64,000 bases of DNA from a virus, in IMG/VR virus record IMGVR_UViG_3300025872_000037, positions 1 through 64,000 of that record; one strand, written 5' to 3'. Position 1 is the first letter of the stretch, and each line of letters opens with the position of its first letter. The notes below the pieces were generated by a model. The model was given only the letters and a program-made list of their open reading frames with translations. It was not told the DNA's origin and made no database searches. Of this stretch, positions 31,679 to 46,709 are shown one piece after another. Made by a program: the position numbers and the translations under genes.

Positions 31679-32035
31679 ATGCCAAATCATAATTCATCAT
31701 TCACGTTCAGTTATACTACCGAGGGTTACCAAGGTATCAACTATTCATCTCCTCCTCGCACAATTACATTTGATGTCGAGCGCGCAGAGGATCTTACACA
31801 CGCAGAATTATGCGAATGTTTCCAGGACTTTCTGAAGGCCTGCGGCTATATGTTAGACAACGGCACGATTGAGTTCGTTCCGTTCTCAGATGAGCCAGAT
31901 ATCCGTGAGGAAGATTACAACTACGAGCCGGCCCAACCTGAAGTTCAGGAAGATCCAAACCAGCAAAAGTTTGATTTCGCCAATAACGAAAACGTAGACA
32001 CCACTGGTTACGACCCAACACGCGGCGCCGTATGA
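31679..32035 (+). CDS. Hypothetical protein
   Basis: EL.E.F.DFLKACGY motif common in phage hypotheticals; own early promoter at 31643-72. Confidence 0.6.
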   Translation: MPNHNSSFTFSYTTEGYQGINYSSPPRTITFDVERAEDLTHAELCECFQDFLKACGYMLDNGTIEFVPFSDEPDIREEDYNYEPAQPEVQEDPNQQKFDFANNENVDTTGYDPTRGAV

Positions 32036-32430
32036 GCAACGACTGGGTACAAGATATCGCTGATATGCACCGCAAGTTCGGTGTCAATGATGCAGTACGC
32101 AAGATGGATGCTGATAAGCTAAAAGCATTTTTGGAGTTTCGCATTCGTTTCCTACAAGAAGAACTTGACGAGATGCGAAACGCCGACGATCCTGAAGAAG
32201 TAACGGACGCGCTGATTGATCTATGCGTTGTTGCCATCGGAACAATGGATGCTTTGGATATCAACGCTCATATTGCTTGGGATGAGGTGCATCGTGCAAA
32301 TATGTCTAAGCAAGTTGGCATCAAGGATTCACGTCCGAACCCGCTTGGCTTGCCAGACTTAATTAAGCCAAAAGGTTGGATTGCTCCATTTCATACTGGT
32401 AATATCGGTTTGCTTGAAAAGCTTAAGTGA
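32032..32430 (+). CDS. MazG-like all-alpha NTP pyrophosphatase (possible dCTPase/dUTPase)
   Basis: LQEELDE...EEVTDALID, WDEVHRANMSK and DLIKPKGW. Confidence 0.85.
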   Translation: MSNDWVQDIADMHRKFGVNDAVRKMDADKLKAFLEFRIRFLQEELDEMRNADDPEEVTDALIDLCVVAIGTMDALDINAHIAWDEVHRANMSKQVGIKDSRPNPLGLPDLIKPKGWIAPFHTGNIGLLEKLK

Positions 32431-33377
32431 AGCACTCACTGACAGTTTTCGATTCGATCTTCGACAACAAGACATCCAAGCGGATGGATTTTGCCGAGTG
32501 GACCGATCTCGAGAAAGTACTTTATCGCCTGAGCAAAATGCCAGGTTATAAGGCAAAAAGGGGAGAGATGAAAAAATCATCCTCACTCATCTCTCCCGCA
32601 ATCTATCAGCCCAACTCGACCCGAGCCAACGCGAACGTCATCGCATGGGCGGGTTGGGCTGCTCTGGATGTTGACTCCTACGAGGGTGATATGCAGACTG
32701 GCCTGGCTCAGTACCAGGACTATCATTTCGTCTGTTACTCGACTGCGTCCTCAACTATAGAGAAGCCGAAGTTCCGTCTCGTCTTTCCTCTGGTTCGTCA
32801 TGTTCCGGCTGAAAGCATACGTCACTTCTGGTATGCGCTGAACAAGCAGTTTAATTCCATCGGAGACGAACAGGCAAAGGATCTGAGTCGTATGTACTAC
32901 GTTCCTGCTCAGTATCCTGGTGCCAACAACTTCATCTTCACGAACTCTGGTAAGTGGATCGATCCTGACCAGCTCATGGCTCGGCACACCTATCTGCAGA
33001 AGACGAACGGCAGCATCCTCGATGGAATCCCTCAGGCCATGAGGGATGCACTGATGGAGGCCAGGAAGGAAAGGATGACGAATCGAGACGTTCGTTGGAC
33101 GTCCTATCGTGATTGCCCATTCGTCAACAAGAAGCTCATCGGAGAGTACCGGAACATCTCTGGGATCGACGGTTCTGGTCGGTACCGTATGATCTACAAG
33201 ATCATGACCAGCATCGCGTGTAATGCGGTCAAACGGAAGTACCCGATATCCCCAGAGGAGATCTCGAGCATGGTTCGTCAGCTAGACGAAGAGACCTCGA
33301 GGATCTACCAACGGCGGCCTCTGCATGTGGAAGCCGAGCGTGCAATCGAGTACGCCTATGCCCATGCAGATCAATAA
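32427..33377 (+). CDS. Archaeo-eukaryotic primase (PrimPol)-like protein with helical C-terminal domain
   Basis: R...NV, ALDVD (motif I), YSTASS..KPKFRLVFPL (motif II region) and KDLSRMYYVP (motif III). Confidence 0.65.
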   Translation: MKHSLTVFDSIFDNKTSKRMDFAEWTDLEKVLYRLSKMPGYKAKRGEMKKSSSLISPAIYQPNSTRANANVIAWAGWAALDVDSYEGDMQTGLAQYQDYHFVCYSTASSTIEKPKFRLVFPLVRHVPAESIRHFWYALNKQFNSIGDEQAKDLSRMYYVPAQYPGANNFIFTNSGKWIDPDQLMARHTYLQKTNGSILDGIPQAMRDALMEARKERMTNRDVRWTSYRDCPFVNKKLIGEYRNISGIDGSGRYRMIYKIMTSIACNAVKRKYPISPEEISSMVRQLDEETSRIYQRRPLHVEAERAIEYAYAHADQ

Positions 33378-33389
33378 GTTATGGTGCAT

Positions 33390-33456
33390 TGGTAATCAAC
33401 AACTTAGGTAATTCTTAGTTGTTTACCTTTGCAAGGAATTTGCTAGGATATTGGCA
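33390..33456 (+). repeat. Repeated early promoter element, copy 1 (IHF box + GTTTAC-N17-TAGGAT, leaderless ATG)
   Basis: TGGTAATCAACAACTTAGGTAATTCTTAGTTGTTTAC; nearly identical to 47281 and 47660. Confidence 0.85.
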
Positions 33457-33863
33457 TGATGATTAACCAACTCGACAAGCAGACCCTCAAGACGATTCGT
33501 GCCGAGCTCGACCTCGCCATGAAGAACATCGAGAACCGGTACGGCGTGGTCCTTCGGACCGGCACCTGCCGCTTCACGTCCGAAGCCGCCACGATGAAGA
33601 TCGAGATCGCCACCCGCGGTGCTGCTGGCGAGGTGGTCGACACCGAGCTTGCCAACCTTCGCCGGAATCTGGCGTACCTCGGCCTGCGCGACGAGAACGT
33701 CGGCCAGACCTTTACCTACGGTGGCAAGACCTACAAGCTGACCGGCTACAAGCCGAAGCGTTACGCGAAGCCGTATCGCCTGCAGTGCCTCAACGACGGC
33801 AAGACCTACGTTGCTCCGGCGGACATGGTTCGTCGTGGCCTCGGTCTAGCCGTCCAGCCCTGA
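33456..33863 (+). CDS. Early hypothetical protein
   Basis: 135-aa ORF with strongly biased codon usage, directly behind the repeated promoter. Confidence 0.75.
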   Translation: MMINQLDKQTLKTIRAELDLAMKNIENRYGVVLRTGTCRFTSEAATMKIEIATRGAAGEVVDTELANLRRNLAYLGLRDENVGQTFTYGGKTYKLTGYKPKRYAKPYRLQCLNDGKTYVAPADMVRRGLGLAVQP

Positions 33864-33865
33864 GT

Positions 33866-34459
33866 ATGCGAGTCAAGCTCACCCCTGAATCGGTCTCCTT
33901 TGCTATCGCAGAGGGGACCGAGATCTTTAAGAATTCTCGCAGCCTCAATTACCGAGACACGGAGCAGATAAAGATTAACAATTCCTTGCGAGGCGCATTC
34001 GGCCAACAAGCCTTCATTGAAGCGACGGGAGGCCGTCGCGTAACAGTTGAGGAGTGTCCAGCCTTTGCGTATGACGTGAAAGCCTCTAACGAGGCGATCC
34101 ACGCGTACTGTGGGTGGACTCTGCCGCTCGAGATGGACGCGGCGCGAGTTGAGGTAAAGACGAGCCGGATTGGCGGCCTCACGAAATGGATATCCTTCAA
34201 CGACCAAATGTTCAAGCACGTCACTAGGTGTGCAACCGCAGGGATGCTCGACTATGTGATCTTCTACGGAGTCCAGAACGAGGACCTGAAGAACTATGAG
34301 GCCGATGTTAGCCTTCTCGGAATTATTTCTGCCAAGGTTCTAACTCAGCAATTCACGGGCCCAGACAGGGAACGCCGACCATCGCTTCAAAACAAAGGAG
34401 ATTCGTTTCTTAATAAGAATAGCATCAACCGACAGAATCTCGGCCATATCTTTTTGTGA
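33866..34459 (+). CDS. PD-(D/E)XK nuclease-like protein
   Basis: Helix GAFGQQAF, then YDV...VEVKT; start at ATG 33866. Confidence 0.55.
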   Translation: MRVKLTPESVSFAIAEGTEIFKNSRSLNYRDTEQIKINNSLRGAFGQQAFIEATGGRRVTVEECPAFAYDVKASNEAIHAYCGWTLPLEMDAARVEVKTSRIGGLTKWISFNDQMFKHVTRCATAGMLDYVIFYGVQNEDLKNYEADVSLLGIISAKVLTQQFTGPDRERRPSLQNKGDSFLNKNSINRQNLGHIFL

Positions 34460-34496
34460 TTTACAACCGCAACCATCTGTTTAGGATCTGACACCT

Positions 34497-35000
34497 ATGA
34501 AGGAATCAATTAAAATCTTGCACGAGTGTGCTGAACTGCAGCTCAAGAAGTCCAATGACTACCAGAATCCAAATTCCACGATCCGCCAAGCGGACTACTA
34601 TCCTCGCGGATTCGCTTCTATCCTGGACATCATCCATACCAAGGTCCTCCGCATGCGCTCGGTCCTCGAGGCCATGGAGAATGACCCAAACTACAATCCC
34701 AACTTTGAGTCGCTTGAAGATTCAGCCAAAGACCTGATCAACTACGCCTCATTCGCCGCTGCGTTCATTCGTGGTGGTATCGATGGCCAGGATCCGAAGC
34801 GTGACTTCTTGAATCGCCCTCGGAAGACTACGACTGGCACCATTAAGATAACTAGCTACGGGCCGCCAAGCGGCCAGCCATTCAATCCTCCTCCGGCAGG
34901 TAGTGTCTACCTGGACTGTAATACACCAGCCCAAGGAAACCTGACCGTCACCGGCACAGAAAACTCTCAGACAAAGTATTTCACCAATGCTAACAGTTAA
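34497..35000 (+). CDS. Nucleotide-modification-associated domain 1 (Nmad1/DUF1599-like)
   Basis: KKSNDY...K..R.....ES.EDS..DLINY pattern. Confidence 0.75.
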   Translation: MKESIKILHECAELQLKKSNDYQNPNSTIRQADYYPRGFASILDIIHTKVLRMRSVLEAMENDPNYNPNFESLEDSAKDLINYASFAAAFIRGGIDGQDPKRDFLNRPRKTTTGTIKITSYGPPSGQPFNPPPAGSVYLDCNTPAQGNLTVTGTENSQTKYFTNANS

Positions 35001-35652
35001 AGACATCCGCCAACACTTCAAGGATGCTCTGACCCGTGAGGACTTCGTCATCGACAAGTCCGGTGTCAAGACCATCGAGATGGTCGGCGCCTCATTCCTG
35101 GCGAACGAGGATGCCATTTTCGGTGACGTCAATTGGGACTATGTCCGCCGTGAGATCCAGTGGTATGACAGCATGTCAAAGAAGGTCGCGGACATTCCTG
35201 GAGGTGCACCTAAAGTTTGGCAGGCTGTAGCCTCCAGCAAAGGAGAGATCAACTCCAACTATGGTTGGTGCATCTATTCCTCGGACAATCATAAGCAATA
35301 CTGGTCGGTGATGCTCGAGCTGCTGGCGAATCCAAACAGCCGCAGAGCCGTCATGATCTACACGCGTCCTACGATGCATTCTGATTATTGCCGAGATAAC
35401 ATGTCTGACTTCATGTGCACCAATGCGGTTCAGTACATGATTCGCAACAATGACCTTCATGCCGTGGTTCAGATGCGGTCCAATGATGTCGTCTTTGGTT
35501 ACAAGAACGACCGAGCCTGGCAACACGAAGTGATGGGTCGTCTTCTCGATGATCTGAACTCGAAGGGCGATAACCGCTATGGAATGGGAACTCTGACCTG
35601 GCAGGTCGGATCACTCCACGTCTACGAGCGCCACTTCAACCTCATTCAATGA
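34987..35652 (+). CDS. gp42: dCMP hydroxymethylase (T4 gp42 homologue)
   Basis: Colinear with recalled T4 gp42: DKSGVKTIE, REIQWY, VASSKGEINSNYGW, SRRA.MIYTRP, DFMCTN (catalytic Cys), MRSNDVVFGYKND (Asp179 equivalent) and GSLHVY. Confidence 0.92.
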   Translation: MLTVKDIRQHFKDALTREDFVIDKSGVKTIEMVGASFLANEDAIFGDVNWDYVRREIQWYDSMSKKVADIPGGAPKVWQAVASSKGEINSNYGWCIYSSDNHKQYWSVMLELLANPNSRRAVMIYTRPTMHSDYCRDNMSDFMCTNAVQYMIRNNDLHAVVQMRSNDVVFGYKNDRAWQHEVMGRLLDDLNSKGDNRYGMGTLTWQVGSLHVYERHFNLIQ

Positions 35653-36293
35653 ACTGTAACAAGTGGGACAACCGCTACCTGAGCCTGGCCAGAGAGGTCG
35701 GTTCGTGGTCCAAAGATCCTTCTCGCAAGATCGGAGCAGTGGCAATCGGAACCTGGGGCCAGGTTCTGTCACAGGGTTACAACGGTTTCCCACGCGGCAT
35801 TGAAGATACCGAGGACCGCCTGAACGATCGCCCGACAAAATACCGGTACGTCGTTCATGCGGAGATGAATGCCATCTACAACGCCAGTTTTAGCGGTGCG
35901 ATGTTGGCCGGTGCAACCATGTACGTGCACGGGCTTCCTATCTGTTCAGAGTGCGCGAAGGGAATCATACAGGTAGGAATCGGCCGCGTGGTCATACCGA
36001 GGCAGGAAGTACCAGATAACTGGAAAGAATCCTGTGAGTTCACCCGAACACTTTTTCATGAAGCAAAAATTCAGCTCGACGAAGTCGATTTCACCGAGAC
36101 TCATAGTTGTCGGAATGAACCCAGCGAAAACCCGTGGGAACCGGTCAAGATCTCCATCACTCCGGAGACTGGACGTATGGATGGATCGCCTGAAGATCCA
36201 GAGGTACTCGTTCATCAACAGCTCGCAGGCGCAAAAACCAAGGCTGTCAAATCTAGACCTGAATACTTTGGCCTTGACAAAAGGCTACGATAA
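35649..36293 (+). CDS. cd: dCMP deaminase (with about 65-aa C-terminal extension overlapping the next gene)
   Basis: SKDP..KIGAV, GYNGFPRG, HAEMNAI and PICSECAK. Confidence 0.9.
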   Translation: MNCNKWDNRYLSLAREVGSWSKDPSRKIGAVAIGTWGQVLSQGYNGFPRGIEDTEDRLNDRPTKYRYVVHAEMNAIYNASFSGAMLAGATMYVHGLPICSECAKGIIQVGIGRVVIPRQEVPDNWKESCEFTRTLFHEAKIQLDEVDFTETHSCRNEPSENPWEPVKISITPETGRMDGSPEDPEVLVHQQLAGAKTKAVKSRPEYFGLDKRLR

Positions 36294-36450
36294 GGTCATT
36301 GCCCTTGGCGGGTTTGCCTCGCGAGCGCTGGATCGGATATCGGTCCAGCATTTTACTTTACCTCACCCGAGTCCTCTGAATCGAAAACTCAACGATCCAA
36401 AGTTTGAGGCCGCGGCGCTTGAAAAATGCTATAACTACCTGTACGCATGA
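36058..36450 (+). CDS. Minimal uracil-DNA-glycosylase-superfamily protein (SMUG/MUG-like motifs)
   Basis: Motif A VVGMNPA, VIALG..A and motif B PHPSPLN. Confidence 0.75.
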   Translation: MKQKFSSTKSISPRLIVVGMNPAKTRGNRSRSPSLRRLDVWMDRLKIQRYSFINSSQAQKPRLSNLDLNTLALTKGYDKVIALGGFASRALDRISVQHFTLPHPSPLNRKLNDPKFEAAALEKCYNYLYA

Positions 36451-37613
36451 AAATTGAAATGACCCCTTACTACGACGAGTTCCTTCGCTACTTTAATCTG
36501 GCAAAGGATCAGCAGGCCAAGTGTAACCTTGGCATTATTCCTTACAAGGAATCTGAAATGGGAGATGCTCTTCTCGAGAACGTCGAACTGTACGATGTGG
36601 TGGAACGTAAGTACGCCGGTTTCTCTCAGATCGTCAATGACGTATTCTATGGATGGGCAGAGGAACATCCATACTGGCACAAGATGAAAGATGGCCACCA
36701 TAGCAAGCAGCGGAAAATCGTGGCCACGAACTGGACCGGTAAACAGAAGGTCTTCGGTCTAGAGGAATGGCTGTACGTCTTCCTGTTGCACCGAGTCTGC
36801 GGATCAGGAATCAATTACTCTCACAAACCATCAGGTTACCACAATACCCTACTCTTCGAACTTCACAAGTGCAATACGATCGAAGAAATGGTGGAGATGG
36901 TAAAGACGTATCCAAAGTCATTCTACACCTCGGTGGGATATCAGTTCCCGGCATTTCCAAAACCACATGCCGGGTCGGGGTACAAGCGAGGCGGTGATTA
37001 TTACTTGGCCGAATTTGCTCCGAGGTTGGTCAGGGACTTCGCAAAATTTTTGCAGGAAGCTCCTTCCCAGAAGGATCTGAGAGTATTGGGAGAATGGCTA
37101 TTTGCCTGGAACAAGAAGAATGGTCTGCGGGCCTACCGCTTCCAGTATGCCGCCTTCATTGCCGATGTCGCGGACTGGTTCCCTCAGTTCGTCAATCGGA
37201 CCAGCCATTTCTACTACGGTTCGAATGCCGTCGAGTGCATCTCGTACCTGGCAAAGCCGATGGGGCGACTGAAGGAGGAACAATTCTTGGATGCCGTGAT
37301 GGACAGAATCTATCTGGACACTGGATCGGTTCCCTACAATGCCGAAGACGTGTGCTGTGACTTCATCCGCTGGGTTGAGAATTATGTTCGTCCTGGAGCA
37401 GACTATGGCCACCTGGATCGAGACAAATTGTGGTCTTCTCACCGAATCACCGATCACCCGTACGGGCGCCAGAAGCCAATGCTTGAACTTGGTCTCATCA
37501 AATCTTTCAACGATTTGGATGTACACCCGTCCGACGACTATATACTGTCTAGGGCTGCAATGACTGTTACGGAATACAAGAACAAAGTGAAGGAACTTTA
37601 TGGCGCACGATAA
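36447..37613 (+). CDS. Putative amino-acid:DNA transferase (aGPT-Pplase-like, HhH-glycosylase fold)
   Basis: YDVVER (cf. FxNVxR), LLHR, FQYAAFIAD, YGSNA..C and AEDVCCDFIRW (cf. ExxxCExxK); context next to a PLP enzyme. Confidence 0.6.
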   Translation: MKIEMTPYYDEFLRYFNLAKDQQAKCNLGIIPYKESEMGDALLENVELYDVVERKYAGFSQIVNDVFYGWAEEHPYWHKMKDGHHSKQRKIVATNWTGKQKVFGLEEWLYVFLLHRVCGSGINYSHKPSGYHNTLLFELHKCNTIEEMVEMVKTYPKSFYTSVGYQFPAFPKPHAGSGYKRGGDYYLAEFAPRLVRDFAKFLQEAPSQKDLRVLGEWLFAWNKKNGLRAYRFQYAAFIADVADWFPQFVNRTSHFYYGSNAVECISYLAKPMGRLKEEQFLDAVMDRIYLDTGSVPYNAEDVCCDFIRWVENYVRPGADYGHLDRDKLWSSHRITDHPYGRQKPMLELGLIKSFNDLDVHPSDDYILSRAAMTVTEYKNKVKELYGAR

Positions 37614-38487
37614 TCATGTCGTTGACGGAATCAACAAAGACCTGAAAGGATTGTCCTGGGCCGATGCCAAGGACTATTACCTAGGTCTTTGCGAAGGCTG
37701 GAAACCGTACAATCCGCCACCAGTTGTGGTGGAGCACGATGGTGTACAGGTGGTACGCGACGATCTGATCGTTGGTACGAAGACTCGCGCCGGAGATCTA
37801 CTGGCAGCCAAGGCGCCGCTCAAGACGATCGTGTACTGCCAGCCGCGTGTGGGTCTGGCCGGCGTTTCGATCGCCGATGTGGCCAAGAGGCACAACAAGA
37901 ACGTTGTTCTGTTCATGCCTTCCTCGAAGGAGATCTCTCGCCATCAGGCTTGTTGCATCGAGCGCGGTGCCACGGCATACTTCGAACGCATTGCTGCCAT
38001 GCCGAACCTGAATCGGAAGGCCGAGATGTGGGCCAAAGAGAACGGCGCATTCTTCGTTCCTCTCGGCCTCAAACACGAGTTAGCCACCGCTGGTATCGTT
38101 CACGCAGCCTCGATGATTCCGGAACCAGATGAAGTCTATGTGGCCATCTCGACCGGAGTGCTCTCTCGTGCCCTGCAGATCGCCTGGCCGAACGCAAAGT
38201 TCCACTGTGTGGCTGTGGCTCGTAATCTCAAGGAAGGTGAACTTGGCCGTGCCGAAGTCATCACCGAACCTCTGGACTTTACTGTAGCCGAGAAGAAGGA
38301 GAACCTGCCGCCGTTCCCGACGGTCAATACGTACGATGCGAAAGTCTGGAAGTACGTCCCGAAGAATGTCCGCGGAAAGAAGATCCTCATGTGGAACGTC
38401 GGTACCGAACCGGTTCTGAAAGACGAGACCATAATTCAGAAGACGAAGTCCTATCGTGACTGGGCAAAGAAGGAATCTAAAGGATGA
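37600..38487 (+). CDS. Fold-type II PLP-dependent enzyme of DNA-hypermodification clusters
   Basis: VVRDDLIVGTKTR (PLP Lys), VAISTGVLSRAL (phosphate loop), YDAKVW and WNVG. Confidence 0.8.
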   Translation: MAHDNHVVDGINKDLKGLSWADAKDYYLGLCEGWKPYNPPPVVVEHDGVQVVRDDLIVGTKTRAGDLLAAKAPLKTIVYCQPRVGLAGVSIADVAKRHNKNVVLFMPSSKEISRHQACCIERGATAYFERIAAMPNLNRKAEMWAKENGAFFVPLGLKHELATAGIVHAASMIPEPDEVYVAISTGVLSRALQIAWPNAKFHCVAVARNLKEGELGRAEVITEPLDFTVAEKKENLPPFPTVNTYDAKVWKYVPKNVRGKKILMWNVGTEPVLKDETIIQKTKSYRDWAKKESKG

Positions 38488-39509
38488 AATCAGTACTCGT
38501 AACTACTCCGATGGCTCCGATCTCGGAGCGCATCAGCTCTCATCGCGCCGCTCAGGCCGTGATCTATGCTGACCAGATTGCATCCAAGGGATATGACGTC
38601 ACGATCAACTTTGGCGGCAAGATCGACAACTACAATGACTGGGATATCCTGGCCGTTTACCACGGTAACGACTGGGGTGGTACGGTCAATATGTTCGGCG
38701 GCGTAAAGGCCTACGCGGCGATCGATCAGATCGTTAACCTATCGAAGTTCAAGGGAGAAGTATGGTCACTGGCAATCGATTTCCCAGACTATGCCGGGAT
38801 GATCAAGCCACGAGTGGACAAAGAACCAGACGCCCATCCAGCCTGGAAGAACGTCGACTGGGAAAATCTATCGAAGATGGTGACTTCGAGCTTGAAGATC
38901 CATACGAACGATTTTGTTGAATCGGGAAAACTTGCCTTCGGAGATTCACATGCGATCTCGATGTACCGTACAGGGTGGGAAGTCAACTCCGTACCGTTCA
39001 AGACTTTATATGGAGCTCTGGATATGGGACTCAAGGAATTTGTTATTGACGACGAGTACCAAGAGCTTGAGGTCTACTTCGGCAACATTGACATTCGTCA
39101 CCACCTGCTTCGTCAGCCAGATCCGAAGAAAGCGACTCAAGAACTCGTGTGCCGGTACGTCAAGCAGGCAAAGGAACTCAGAGAATCTGTCAAGGCCGAT
39201 GTGATTCGTATCTGGGAACCGCTGCCCATCGAGAACGAATCTCGCAAGTTGCCTAAGACCGGTTACTACAAGGGAACTCCGTTCTACGGATCCTGGACAG
39301 AGCGTAACGAGATCCGCAAGGTTTTTGTGGAAGAACTTCTGTCGAATTCTATCGACGGCGTGGATATTTTCCGATGGACCGACAAGCTCCTCAACGAAAA
39401 GGGAGAGCTTGATTTCGAGGCCATGGAGAAACCACAGTCCGTTCATCTTTCTCGTGCCTCCTATCCGCACTGGAGTGGAAAAGAGTGGAACGATTCTCAG
39501 ACAAAATAA
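38484..39509 (+). CDS. SGNH/GDSL-fold hydrolase or acyltransferase with N-terminal Rossmann-like domain
   Basis: Block I FGDSH, block III FGNIDIR and block V SVHL. Confidence 0.6.
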   Translation: MKSVLVTTPMAPISERISSHRAAQAVIYADQIASKGYDVTINFGGKIDNYNDWDILAVYHGNDWGGTVNMFGGVKAYAAIDQIVNLSKFKGEVWSLAIDFPDYAGMIKPRVDKEPDAHPAWKNVDWENLSKMVTSSLKIHTNDFVESGKLAFGDSHAISMYRTGWEVNSVPFKTLYGALDMGLKEFVIDDEYQELEVYFGNIDIRHHLLRQPDPKKATQELVCRYVKQAKELRESVKADVIRIWEPLPIENESRKLPKTGYYKGTPFYGSWTERNEIRKVFVEELLSNSIDGVDIFRWTDKLLNEKGELDFEAMEKPQSVHLSRASYPHWSGKEWNDSQTK

Positions 39510-45582: not shown

Positions 45583-46017
45583 ATGACAAACGACCAAGAT
45601 ACTGATGTCCCGTTCAACACAGACGAGGATCCGTTTCCCAGTGCCATCTGGGACAAAGCTGCCGATGATGCTGCAAAGCGTTATGCTGAGGCTGTACGAG
45701 ACGAGATCTACGAACTAGACGGGTCACAAATCGGAAAGGTCAACTTCAGCCACGAGATGGTCGCAAGTTCTGATCAAAAGAAGAAGGCCAGGTCAATAGT
45801 GATTCGGTCCGACTTCGGGGCGGTTCTCGTTTTACCGGACTTCAAGAAGAAGTCCGCCTCCGCCACGATCCTGAACCTTGGAGTCATTCGTGCCATGAAG
45901 CAGGAAGGGTACACATCAGAATATATCCAGGAGAACGGCAAGATCTATGGCGACGTCAGGCCTTTCGATAAAAAGAACGTTGAGCTATTCGCCTATTACC
46001 TGACCCATAAAATATGA
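45583..46017 (+). CDS. Hypothetical protein
   Basis: 144-aa ORF coupled to thyX. Confidence 0.6.
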   Translation: MTNDQDTDVPFNTDEDPFPSAIWDKAADDAAKRYAEAVRDEIYELDGSQIGKVNFSHEMVASSDQKKKARSIVIRSDFGAVLVLPDFKKKSASATILNLGVIRAMKQEGYTSEYIQENGKIYGDVRPFDKKNVELFAYYLTHKI

Positions 46018-46709
46018 TCTTTGACCATCAAACCGTACGGCTCATCAGCCACACGAAATCGGTCTCCAATGGTCCTGCTGCGATGGATATGCAGGAACTC
46101 GTGGCCTTCTGCGCTCGGGTCAGCAATCCAGCAAACCAGAACAACCTGGAGACATCCGAGAAGCTTGTTCGTTACCTGATCAAACACCGCCACTGGTCTC
46201 CTCTGGAGATGGTCTCGGCCACGGTCGAGATCAACACCACTCGTGACATCGCCCGGCAGATCCTGAGGCATCGTTCGTTTTCGTTTCAGGAGTTCTCTCA
46301 GCGCTATGCCGATCCGACCGCCGCTCTGGAGATGGTGGTCCGTGAGGCCAGGTTGCAGGACAAGAAGAACCGCCAGAATTCGGTTTCAACAGATGACCAG
46401 AACCTCATGATCTGGTGGAAGGAACGGCAGAAAGATCTCATCGAGCTGTCGGAGAGCATCTACAAGGATGCCACTGCCCGTGGAATCGCCAAGGAACAGG
46501 CTCGAGCGATCCTCCCTGAGGGTTGCACGATGTCTCGGATCTACATGGCCGGAACGCTGCGCAGCTTCGTTCACTTCATTGACGTCCGATCTGCCAATGG
46601 GACTCAGGCCGAATGTGCAGACGTGGCCCGAAAGACCGCAGAGGTTCTCAGGCCGGTTTTCCCAATGGTCCTGGAGTTTGTTCAATCTCAAGCCGTTGAT
46701 GGCCAATGA
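46014..46709 (+). CDS. thyX: Flavin-dependent thymidylate synthase ThyX
   Basis: HWSPLE, QILRHRSFSFQEFSQRY (RHRx7S) and AKEQARAILP. Confidence 0.95.
   Translation: MIFDHQTVRLISHTKSVSNGPAAMDMQELVAFCARVSNPANQNNLETSEKLVRYLIKHRHWSPLEMVSATVEINTTRDIARQILRHRSFSFQEFSQRYADPTAALEMVVREARLQDKKNRQNSVSTDDQNLMIWWKERQKDLIELSESIYKDATARGIAKEQARAILPEGCTMSRIYMAGTLRSFVHFIDVRSANGTQAECADVARKTAEVLRPVFPMVLEFVQSQAVDGQ

What the first reader, a model, noticed from the sequence alone, without database searches (positions are those of the whole stretch)
32032..39509. Candidate new DNA hypermodification system: amino-acid-type modification built on hydroxymethylcytosine
Seen: between gp43 and uvsX lie a MazG-like pyrophosphatase, an AEP-like protein, a PD-(D/E)XK-like protein and then six-plus translationally coupled genes under one early promoter (34459-87). 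These are Nmad1, gp42-type dCMP hydroxymethylase, dCMP deaminase, a UDG-fold protein, an aGPT-Pplase/AADT-like protein, a fold-II PLP enzyme and an SGNH-fold protein. Established: T4 keeps gp42 and beta-glucosyltransferase in this slot. Amino-acid:DNA transferases and PLP decarboxylases are characterised in thymidine hypermodification (ViI, M6, phiW-14, SP10 types), where they act on 5hmU activated by a DNA kinase. Here the synthase has the cytosine-specifying Asp, a separate ThyX supplies dTMP, and no canonical glucosyltransferase, dUMP hydroxymethylase or kinase is recognisable in the window. Inference: 5hmC is decorated with an amino acid, PLP-processed (for example decarboxylated) and possibly acylated, giving a cytosine derivative I do not know to be described. 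An alternative is that hm-dCMP is deaminated to hm-dUMP, a new route into T hypermodification.
Basis: partly seen in the sequence, partly recalled or inferred. Interest (0 to 1): 0.92.

Follow-up and report, generated by a model that had tools for sequence, protein, structure and literature searches.

The report
Phage cytosine hypermodification cassette without kinase
An uncultured freshwater T4-like phage carries, where T4 keeps its glucosyltransferase, a conserved gene set that probably makes hydroxymethylcytosine and then attaches and trims an amino acid on it, a DNA chemistry so far shown only for thymine.

Summary
34987-35652 is 60% identical to T4 gp42, with its Cys and cytosine-specifying Asp. 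36447-37613 has no Pfam or PHROG match. Its AlphaFold model (pLDDT 96.8) matches the PaMx11 glycine:DNA transferase best (Z 9.6), then HhH DNA glycosylases. 37600-38487 belongs to phrog_7093, the family of the validated M6 gp52 PLP decarboxylase. 38484-39509 has a T4 beta-glucosyltransferase-like N-domain (below threshold) and SGNH-like motifs. In other phages it is fused to the transferase (7 of 7 long relatives tested; 80 IMG/VR fusion loci).

The transferase, PLP enzyme and 38484-type protein co-occur in 63 of 63 unfused loci with room. All 127 neighbouring thymidylate-synthase homologues carry the cytosine-type Asp. No 5-hmU DNA kinase, radical SAM enzyme or second synthase was found in this record or in a 99%-complete relative.

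Best reading (about 0.6): hmC replaces C before replication, and an amino-acid-derived group is added after it. The 38484 protein would stand in for the kinase (inferred). The chemistry is unproven and no cultured phage carries the full set. A kinase-dependent version was proposed in print for TET clusters.

The parts
32032..32430 (+). MazG-like nucleotide pyrophosphohydrolase. It is the likely dCTPase-type pool editor; that role is inferred.
   Evidence: PF01503 E 4.1e-8 and phrog_671 E 3.7e-22. A homologue lies upstream of the cassette in 31 of 36 related loci with room.
34497..35000 (+). Nmad1/DUF1599-like protein, the first gene of the overlapping block.
   Evidence: PF07659 E 0.0017, below the cut-off. 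phrog_18404 E 4.6e-13. Present in 48 of 53 related loci with room.
34987..35652 (+). gp42-type dCMP hydroxymethylase (P0004). Cys144 and Asp175 align with T4 Cys148 and Asp179.
   Evidence: 60% identity to T4 gp42, E 4e-100. 23.6% identity over 148 aa to RB69 gp48. Glu, Cys and Asp are conserved. It is the only TS homologue found in the 128-kb record.
35649..36293 (+). dCMP deaminase. The domain ends near 36090 and the ORF tail overlaps the next gene. It is an accessory part of the cassette.
   Evidence: PF00383 E 2.4e-17 and phrog_174 E 1.7e-39. Present in 35 of 61 unfused cassettes and 13 of 80 fusion loci.
36034..36450 (+). Small UDG-superfamily protein with motifs GMNPA and HPSPLN. The likely start is the ATG at 36058. 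It is an accessory part.
   Evidence: PF03167 E 1.1e-5, 26 bits against a cut-off of 24.3. Sequence. Present in 38 of 61 unfused cassettes. No PDB sequence match.
36447..37613 (+). Divergent amino-acid:DNA-transferase-like (aGPT-Pplase/HhH fold) protein, P0001.
   Evidence: AF2 pLDDT 96.8. Best PDB match is 8z2m_A, PaMx11 gp46: Z 9.6, rmsd 3.9, 207 residues aligned. [quoted passage not shown] No Pfam or PHROG hit.
37600..38487 (+). Fold-type-II PLP enzyme of the M6 gp52 decarboxylase family (P0002). The candidate Schiff-base lysine is K61.
   Evidence: phrog_7093 E 1.4e-37. M6 gp52 is in the same family at E 2.2e-159. K61 is invariant in 11 of 11 aligned relatives. Cysteine synthases in the PDB match at E 0.006.
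38484..39509 (+). Two-domain protein P0003. The N-domain resembles the T4 beta-glucosyltransferase N-domain. The C-domain has the SGNH-like motifs GDSH, GNID and SVH. It is the proposed activating or partner enzyme of the transferase.
   Evidence: PF09198 matched below the cut-off in 19 of 34 relatives, best E 1.6e-4. hhalign of the N-domain against T4 b-gt residues 30-101 gave probability 62%, E 7.7e-5. It is fused N-terminally to the AADT-like domain in 7 of 7 long relatives tested and in 80 IMG/VR loci.
34460..34487 (+). Promoter-like site (TTTACA-16-TAGGAT) ahead of the block.
   Evidence: 9 of 12 consensus matches. The region gave 12 sites against 7.5 +/- 3.3 in shuffles. This is not evidence of function.
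46014..46709 (+). ThyX (context): an independent route to dTMP.
   Evidence: PF02511 E 2.1e-41.

Best explanation
This is a conserved cassette for hypermodifying 5-hydroxymethylcytosine in phage DNA.

Shown by homology:
- A gp42 orthologue makes 5-hm-dCMP.
- A MazG-like pyrophosphohydrolase and a deaminase edit the nucleotide pools, and ThyX makes dTMP.
- The hydroxymethylated base would therefore replace C during replication, as it does in T4.

Inferred:
- On the finished DNA, the 38484-39509 protein prepares or activates the 5-CH2OH group. Its N-domain resembles the part of T4 beta-glucosyltransferase that faces hmC-DNA. Its C-domain has SGNH-like motifs. It would take the place of the P-loop 5-hmU DNA kinase used in the thymidine pathways.
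- The HhH-fold transferase (36447-37613) flips the base out and substitutes an amino acid.
- The PLP enzyme (37600-38487) then processes that amino acid, most likely by decarboxylation.
- No radical SAM isomerase is present, so the amino acid must keep a free alpha-amine. That fits a ViI-like O-linked serine, which would give a 5-(2-aminoethoxy)methyl-type cytosine. The exact product is a guess.
- The small UDG-like protein and the deaminase are optional accessories.
For: - Synthase identity. It is 60% identical to T4 gp42. The unfused-lineage synthases have a median 62.7% identity to T4 gp42 against 26.7% to RB69 gp48.
- Cytosine type. Glu, Cys and Asp equivalents are present in 126 of 127 synthases beside the module. 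The remaining one has a gap at Glu but keeps Cys and Asp.
- Transferase. The fold matches are coherent. The E300-D301-x-x-C304 motif is invariant or nearly so. It has the same Glu-to-Cys spacing as the metal-binding Glu243 and base-clamping Cys247 of PaMx11 gp46 (PMC11472151, section 14 read).
- PLP enzyme. It falls in the family of the biochemically validated M6 gp52 (PMC8989533, passages read).
- Linkage. 63 of 63 unfused loci with room have the PLP enzyme and P0003 downstream of the transferase. 55 of 61 have gp42 upstream. Among the 80 fusion loci, 76 have the PLP enzyme and 65 have a TS homologue.
- Rosetta-stone fusions of P0003 and the transferase.
- No kinase. phrog_800, the family of the M6 gp54 kinase, gave only short P-loop matches. 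They lie in gp44-type and gp46-type ATPases of G000, G002, G003 (99% complete) and G004.
- tblastn of M6 gp51-54 and gp58, T4 b-gt and RB69 gp45-48 against the record found only the gp42 locus.
- Position. The cassette sits where T4 has gene 42 and b-gt, between 43 and uvsX.
Against: - No chemistry has been observed. The phage is uncultured, and the sequencing runs on hand are contigs only.
- P0001 matches no Pfam or PHROG model, even at E <= 10. Its profile does not find the AADTs of M6, ViI or SP10. The only hit, in phiW-14, was a 131-aa unrelated ORF at E 0.004.
- Z 9.6 for a helical protein is only about 1 above the glycosylase and DUF2419 matches. Foldseek against the PDB gave nothing at E <= 0.001.
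- The P0002 profile matches M6 gp52 only weakly in a direct search (E 1e-4 and 0.005) and does not find ViI gp226.
- The fold of P0003 is unknown. AF2 failed, and three profile searches of the PDB were empty or noise.
- Known AADTs need a phosphorylated substrate, and no phosphate donor enzyme was identified.
- A GT2 gene elsewhere in the record could glycosylate hmC instead or in addition.
- The record is 76% complete, so a kinase could lie in the missing part. The 99%-complete relative has none.
Confidence: 0.6

Rival explanations
1. Thymine route. hm-dCMP made by the gp42 homologue is deaminated by the adjacent dCMP deaminase to hm-dUMP. hmU enters the DNA, and the AADT and PLP enzymes build a thymidine-type hypermodification as in ViI or M6.
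For: The deaminase is translationally coupled to the synthase. Every characterised AADT and the M6 gp52 decarboxylase act on hmU derivatives (PMC8989533 passages; PMC11472151 section 4).
Against: - The deaminase is absent from 26 of 61 unfused cassettes and was found in only 13 of 80 fusion loci. It could, however, be encoded elsewhere.
- 127 of 127 linked synthases are the Asp (dCMP) type.
- No 5-HMUDK was found.
- ThyX supplies ordinary dTMP.
- The UDG-like protein has SMUG-like motifs. That family is recalled to excise hmU, which comes from memory and was not tested.
Confidence: 0.1
2. hmC is modified, but not by amino-acid transfer. P0003 would be the real transferase, adding an acyl, sugar or other group to hmC. 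The HhH protein would act only as a base-flipping or DNA-binding partner. The PLP enzyme would make or tailor a small-molecule donor.
For: - P0003 lies in the b-gt slot and resembles the b-gt N-domain.
- Cultured Aeromonas phages have gp42 but no glucosyltransferase (PMC2993671 passages). They carry a P0003-like domain without this AADT family or the PLP enzyme.
- Some relatives add GT2 and UDP-galactopyranose mutase genes.
Against: - The P0003 C-domain does not resemble the UDP-glucose domain of b-gt (hhalign probability 0.1%).
- The transferase keeps a Glu/Asp-Cys motif like the PaMx11 active site.
- The PLP enzyme belongs to a family whose tested member acts on DNA-bound amino acids.
Confidence: 0.2
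3. There is no joint pathway. The block would be ordinary nucleotide metabolism (gp42, deaminase, MazG) next to unrelated repair and metabolic genes: an HhH glycosylase, a UDG, a PLP enzyme and an esterase.
For: HhH glycosylases score nearly as well as the AADT in the fold search (Z 8.2 against 9.6). T4-like genomes do pack unrelated early genes tightly.
Against: The three unknowns stay together in 63 of 63 unfused loci and 76 of 80 fusion loci, across lineages with different flanks, and always near an Asp-type synthase. Two of them are fused into one polypeptide.
Confidence: 0.07

Closest known systems
Thymidine hypermodification pathways of phages ViI, M6, PaMx11, SP10 and phiW-14 (5-HMUDK kinase + AADT/aGPT-Pplase + tailoring enzymes)
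   Same: - An HhH-fold transferase whose best structural match is PaMx11 gp46.
- A PLP enzyme in the same PHROG as M6 gp52.
- Linkage to a thymidylate-synthase-type hydroxymethylase.
- Many relatives carry a second, distant AADT-like paralogue (hhalign probability 81%), like the paralogous pairs known in those systems.
   Different: - The precursor synthase is the dCMP type, not the dUMP type.
- There is no P-loop 5-hmU DNA kinase and no radical SAM or FAD enzyme.
- A b-gt-N/SGNH-like protein is linked or fused instead.
- The transferase is too divergent for the Pfam or PHROG models.
T4 hmC system (gp42, gp56, alpha- and beta-glucosyltransferases)
   Same: The gp42 orthologue is 60% identical. 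The genomic slot between gene 43 and uvsX is the same. hmC would be supplied before replication and decorated after it.
   Different: No UDP-glucose-binding domain is present. The decoration genes are a transferase and a PLP enzyme. The pool editor is MazG-type rather than gp56-type; this last point is inferred.
Metavirome C5-MT/TET clusters with a P-loop kinase and aG/PT-PPlase (Burke et al. 2021, PMC8256090)
   Same: Those authors proposed that 5hmC in DNA could be phosphorylated and further modified by an aG/PT-PPlase-type enzyme (passages read).
   Different: In those clusters hmC arises after replication at GpC sites through a methylase and TET, and a P-loop kinase is present. Here hmC comes from gp42 and no kinase is seen. 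Neither system has a determined product.
RB69/DLP3 arabinosyl-5-hydroxycytosine system (PMC13326640)
   Same: A TS homologue with the Asp substitution occupies the same slot of a T4-like genome and is followed by decoration genes (sections 24 and 25 read).
   Different: P0004 is only 23.6% identical to RB69 gp48 against 60% to T4 gp42. No arabinose-nucleotide genes or GT-B transferases lie in the cassette.

Membership tests
AADT / aGPT-Pplase (amino acid:DNA transferase) | DNA-glycosylase-like helix-hairpin-helix fold resembling PaMx11 gp46 | tested here: met
   The model has pLDDT 96.8. 8z2m_A is the top match of 48,161 chains: Z 9.6, rmsd 3.9, 207 residues aligned. HhH-GPD glycosylases and DUF2419 follow at Z 8.5 to 5. 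BFVD hits are named AADT, Pplase1 and HMUDK-helical.
AADT / aGPT-Pplase (amino acid:DNA transferase) | Sequence match to the family's profile models or to characterised members | tested here: not met
   There was no Pfam hit at E <= 10 and no PHROG hit at E <= 0.001. hhalign against M6 gp51 gave probability 0.3%. The profile found no AADT in M6, ViI, SP10 or phiW-14. A 62%-identical UniProt protein does carry the automatic name 'AADT domain-containing'.
AADT / aGPT-Pplase (amino acid:DNA transferase) | Active-site metal-binding Glu and base-clamping Cys (Glu243 and Cys247 in PaMx11 gp46) | tested here: inconclusive
   E300 and C304 are invariant in 41 sequences and nearly invariant in 77, with the same spacing. 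The PaMx11 residues come from PMC11472151 section 14. No residue-level superposition was available.
AADT / aGPT-Pplase (amino acid:DNA transferase) | Works with a P-loop 5-hydroxymethylpyrimidine DNA kinase | tested here: not met
   phrog_800 gave only P-loop matches in clamp-loader and SbcC-like ATPases in 4 records, one of them 99% complete. M6 gp54 found nothing in the record or in the 80 fusion loci.
AADT / aGPT-Pplase (amino acid:DNA transferase) | Transfers a free amino acid or amine to the 5-methylene of a pyrimidine in DNA | not testable with these tools
   This needs enzyme assays.
M6 gp52 / ViI gp226 PLP-dependent decarboxylases | Membership of the same sequence family, with a conserved Schiff-base lysine | tested here: met
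   phrog_7093 matches P0002 at E 1.4e-37 and M6 gp52 at E 2.2e-159. K61 is invariant in 11 of 11 relatives. Caveat: the direct profile match to M6 gp52 is weak, and ViI gp226 was not found.
T4 gp42 dCMP hydroxymethylase | Catalytic Cys148, Asp179 and Glu60, and closer kinship to gp42 than to the 5-hydroxy-dCMP synthases | tested here: met
   60% identity to T4 gp42. The residues are conserved. 23.6% identity over 148 aa to RB69 gp48. The product itself was not measured.
T4 beta-glucosyltransferase (GT-B) | N-terminal acceptor-side domain | tested here: inconclusive
   PF09198 was always below the cut-off (14.8 to 16.5 bits against 27). It recurred in 19 of 34 relatives. hhalign gave probability 62%, E 7.7e-5, over b-gt residues 30-101.
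T4 beta-glucosyltransferase (GT-B) | C-terminal UDP-glucose-binding domain | tested here: not met
   hhalign of the C-domain alignment against T4 b-gt gave probability 0.1%.
SGNH/GDSL hydrolases and acyltransferases | Blocks I (GDS), III (GxND) and V (DxxH), and the flavodoxin-like fold | tested here: inconclusive
   G153-D154-S155-H156, G200-N201-D203 and S319-H321 are invariant in 34 sequences. No canonical Asp precedes the His. Lipase_GDSL matched 2 of 34 at E <= 1. The atlas feature hits of 0.91 and 0.89 are leads only. The fold was not obtained.
UDG superfamily | Pfam UDG domain with motif A and motif B | tested here: met
   PF03167 scored 26 bits against a cut-off of 24.3. The motifs GMNPA and HPSPLN are present. 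Their SMUG-like character is recalled, not tested. There is no PDB sequence match.

The most novel reading that the evidence does not exclude
The 38484-type domain is a new, non-kinase enzyme that activates the hydroxymethyl group of hmC in DNA, for example by making an ester leaving group. That would allow an HhH transferase to install an amino acid, which a PLP enzyme then decarboxylates. The result would be a cationic aminoalkyl-cytosine that fully replaces C in widespread freshwater and marine T4-like phages. It would be the first amino-acid-derived cytosine hypermodification and a second, independent way to activate DNA for group transfer.
Probability: 0.3. Interest if true: 0.9.

Novelty: new variant of a known kind. 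Interest (0 to 1): 0.8.

Why it matters
Amino-acid-derived DNA hypermodification has been demonstrated only on thymine, and it always depends on a DNA kinase. This cassette links the same transferase and PLP logic to the T4-type hmC pathway, and a different, unexplained partner enzyme replaces the kinase.

The families are large: 954 and 1126 protein clusters at E <= 0.001. In IMG/VR, 569 confirmed stretches were found for the unfused form and 298 for the fused form. The chemistry could therefore be common in aquatic phages.

If confirmed, it would add a new natural cytosine derivative. It would also yield new enzymes for labelling 5hmC in DNA, a new resistance phenotype against restriction and CRISPR, and a candidate function for an orphan 795-aa protein of cultured Aeromonas phages.

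Tried and rejected
- Both protein-atlas calls returned no structure.
- Profile searches of PDB sequences with the P0003 family were empty or noise. The whole protein and the N-domain gave nothing. The C-domain gave one de novo design at E 3.
- Single-sequence PDB searches of P0001 and P0003 gave nothing meaningful.
- Foldseek of the P0001 model against the PDB gave no match at E <= 0.001.
- Complex prediction on P0001 + P0003 gave no verdict (score 0.00; controls not run). This counts neither for nor against binding.
- megablast and tblastn of the block and of P0001 against 50,697 phage records found nothing.
- The fused query found only the P0003-like domain in 43 cultured phages. None of the 43 covered 80% or more of the query.
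- The C-terminal half of the Aeromonas 44RR 795-aa protein could not be tied to the AADT family (hhalign probability 0.1%; one BLAST segment at E 0.016).
- The phiW-14 hit of the AADT profile (E 0.004) lies in a 131-aa hypothetical ORF and was dismissed.
- 5-hydroxycytosine as the product was considered and rejected for this phage on identity. It stays open for the fusion-lineage synthases, which are 32% identical to gp42 and 26% to RB69 gp48.
- The sequencing runs are Logan contigs of freshwater and other aquatic metagenomes. They cannot show base modification.
- Literature searches found no paper describing an AADT acting on cytosine. The terms were: hypermodification/5-hydroxymethylcytosine/phage/amino acid; AADT/hypermodification/5hmC; aGPT-Pplase with dCMP hydroxymethylase; hypermodified cytosine/phage/PLP; and aGPT-Pplase alone. 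Judging by title and abstract, I found no cytosine-directed AADT among the 10 aGPT-Pplase papers; most concern thymidine systems or phage genome reports.
- One long relative (P0259, 1347 aa, 13 short stretches) was not examined for fusion.

Full report
**What the window is.** The window is the first 64 kb of a 128,087-base IMG/VR virus record that is estimated to be 76% complete. It is a distant T4-like phage. Its gp43 is at most 44.6% identical to any phage record. gp45, gp44, uvsX and gp41 are present. The stretch recurs in freshwater metagenomes from several studies, as assembled contigs only.

**Observation.** On the + strand, seven ORFs follow 34497 with overlaps of 4 to 14 nt. The exception is the deaminase ORF, whose tail overlaps the UDG ORF by 260 nt in another frame.
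- Pfam and PHROGs confirm the MazG-like pyrophosphohydrolase, a primase-like protein, a thymidylate-synthase homologue, a dCMP deaminase and a UDG-superfamily protein.
- Nmad1 is below the Pfam cut-off but matches phrog_18404.
- 33785-34459 matched nothing.
- The proposed promoter is a 9-of-12 consensus match. The region gave 12 such sites against 7.5 +/- 3.3 in shuffles.
- T4 does keep 42 and b-gt between 43 and uvsX.

**The synthase.** P0004 is 60% identical to T4 gp42 (E 4e-100). It keeps the residues that align with Glu60, Cys148 and Asp179.

A 2026 paper showed that Asp-bearing homologues such as RB69 gp48 make 5-hydroxy-dCMP instead (PMC13326640, sections 24 and 25 read). I therefore compared them. 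P0004 is 23.6% identical to RB69 gp48 over 148 residues. It is thus a gp42 orthologue, and 5-hm-dCMP is the expected product. It is also the only TS homologue that tblastn finds in the record. A 99%-complete relative likewise has only one.

**The transferase.** P0001 has no Pfam, PHROG or NCBIfam match. Its family is nevertheless large and conserved: 954 clusters at E <= 0.001 and 147 representatives at 50% identity.
- With a 77-sequence alignment, AlphaFold gave pLDDT 96.8.
- Against 48,161 PDB representatives the best match is the PaMx11 5-PmdU glycinyltransferase gp46 (Z 9.6, rmsd 3.9, 207 residues). DUF2419 and HhH-GPD glycosylases follow.
- Foldseek against the PDB was not significant.
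[quoted passage not shown] Weaker hits include several AADT, Pplase1 and 5-hmdU-kinase-helical-domain proteins.
- The nearly invariant E300-D301-x-x-C304 motif has the spacing of the metal-binding Glu243 and base-clamping Cys247 of gp46 (PMC11472151 section 14). This correspondence is inferred, not superposed.
- Profile searches did not connect the family to M6 gp51 or to other known AADTs.

**The PLP enzyme.** P0002 matches phrog_7093 at E 1.4e-37, and M6 gp52 defines that family (E 2.2e-159). M6 gp52 was shown to decarboxylate a DNA-bound glycine adduct and ViI gp226 to decarboxylate O-serinyl-thymidine (PMC8989533 passages).
- Lys61 is invariant in 11 relatives.
- Cysteine synthases are the nearest solved sequences (E 0.006).
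- The direct profile match to M6 gp52 is weak, and ViI gp226 was not found.

**The last gene.** P0003 also belongs to a large family of 1126 clusters.
- Its N-terminal third recurrently touches the T4 beta-glucosyltransferase model below threshold (19 of 34 relatives, best E 1.6e-4).
- hhalign puts it on b-gt residues 30-101 with probability 62%. That region ends at the position of Asp100, which I recall as catalytic in b-gt.
- Its C-terminal part does not resemble b-gt. It carries the invariant motifs GDSH, GNID and S-V-H, with only faint GDSL signals. Its fold remains undetermined.

**Rosetta-stone evidence.** All 7 relatives of 639-790 aa that I tested have a P0003-like N-terminal half (28-39% identity) and a P0001-like C-terminal half. 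An eighth long hit was not examined. A scan of IMG/VR with these fusions returned 298 confirmed stretches. In the 80 loci kept, the order is fusion, then PLP enzyme (76 of 80; the other four loci end too soon), then a TS homologue (65 of 80). None of the 80 had a hit to M6 gp51-54.

**Neighbourhood of the unfused form.** I examined 80 loci that are 64-93% identical in P0001.
- 63 of 63 with room downstream have both the PLP enzyme and P0003.
- 55 of 61 with room upstream have gp42.
- The six exceptions are one lineage with the order P0003, AADT, paralogue, PLP, GT2, UDP-galactopyranose mutase.
- The deaminase is present in 35 of 61 and the UDG-like gene in 38 of 61, so both are optional.
- 42 of 76 loci carry an extra 345-aa gene between the transferase and the PLP enzyme. 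It is a distant paralogue of the transferase (probability 81%) and is absent from this record.
- Every one of the 127 linked synthases has Asp at the cytosine-specifying position.

**The missing kinase.** phrog_800, the family of the M6 gp54 kinase, gives only short P-loop matches. They lie in clamp-loader and SbcC-like ATPases in this record and in three relatives, one of them 99% complete. No radical SAM, b-gt or RB69-type transferase homologue was found. A GT2 gene exists at C1:84467-85216, among CsgG-, FecR- and cyclase-like genes. Relatives have a GT1 gene far from the cassette. Glycosylation therefore cannot be excluded.

**Reading.** The evidence fits a module that builds on hmC rather than hmU and works like the ViI/M6 pathways. 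P0003 would take the kinase's place. This role is inferred from three things: its fusion to the transferase, which parallels the known kinase-AADT fusions (PMC8989533 passage); its b-gt-like N-domain; and the absence of a kinase. Without an isomerase, the PLP step needs a free alpha-amine, as with O-linked serine in ViI. An aminoethoxymethyl-type cytosine is therefore my best guess.

**Novelty.** The searchable literature holds no AADT acting on cytosine. Burke et al. 2021 did suggest that TET-made 5hmC might be phosphorylated and passed to an aG/PT-PPlase in some metavirome contigs. The present system differs in three ways: the gp42 route, the missing kinase and the new partner domain. No cultured phage in the collection has the full set. 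Aeromonas phages 44RR, 31 and 25 have gp42 and no glucosyltransferase (PMC2993671 passages). They carry a 795-aa protein with the P0003-like domain, which offers a tractable entry point.

Noticed in passing
window 35649-36293 and 36034-36450: The deaminase ORF runs about 200 nt past the end of its domain (near 36090). It overlaps the UDG-like ORF in another frame, and its tail is low-complexity. In relatives such as L022 the two genes overlap by only 29 nt.
   Followed up: partly
L022:9106-10143 and L089:9224-10276: A 345-350-aa gene lies between the transferase and the PLP enzyme in 42 of 76 related loci. It is a distant paralogue of the transferase (hhalign probability 81%) and is absent from this record.
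   Followed up: partly
L022:12087-13286: In one T4-like lineage, a C-5 cytosine DNA methylase-family gene (PF00145, E 1.3e-19) is translationally coupled to the end of the cassette.
   Followed up: no
L089:11143-13423: Another lineage adds a GT2 glycosyltransferase and a UDP-galactopyranose mutase directly after the PLP enzyme. This suggests a further galactofuranosyl decoration.
   Followed up: no
L001:4399-8379 (Aeromonas phage 44RR2.8t.2): The 795-aa protein with the P0003-like N-domain sits next to a gene annotated as a sodium-dependent galactose transporter. Its C-terminal half has a faint HhH-like segment (BLAST E 0.016).
   Followed up: partly
G000:C1:84467-91557 (L194:1468-8558) and C1:74937-76448: Outside the window, the phage record encodes a GT2 glycosyltransferase, a CsgG-like protein, a FecR-domain protein, a CHASE2 adenylate/guanylate cyclase and a TPS-domain protein.
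   Followed up: partly
PP438422.1:26911-27591; KY006853.1:552-1238: The only cultured-phage matches to the PLP enzyme (29-35% identity) lie in genes annotated as DNA methylases, in Microcystis phage Mae-JY30 and two Erythrobacter phages.
   Followed up: no
window 32427-33377 and 33785-34459: A primase-like protein (phrog_9765, E 4.3e-62) and a 224-aa protein with no family match separate MazG from the cassette. Homologues occur only in the closest relatives.
   Followed up: partly
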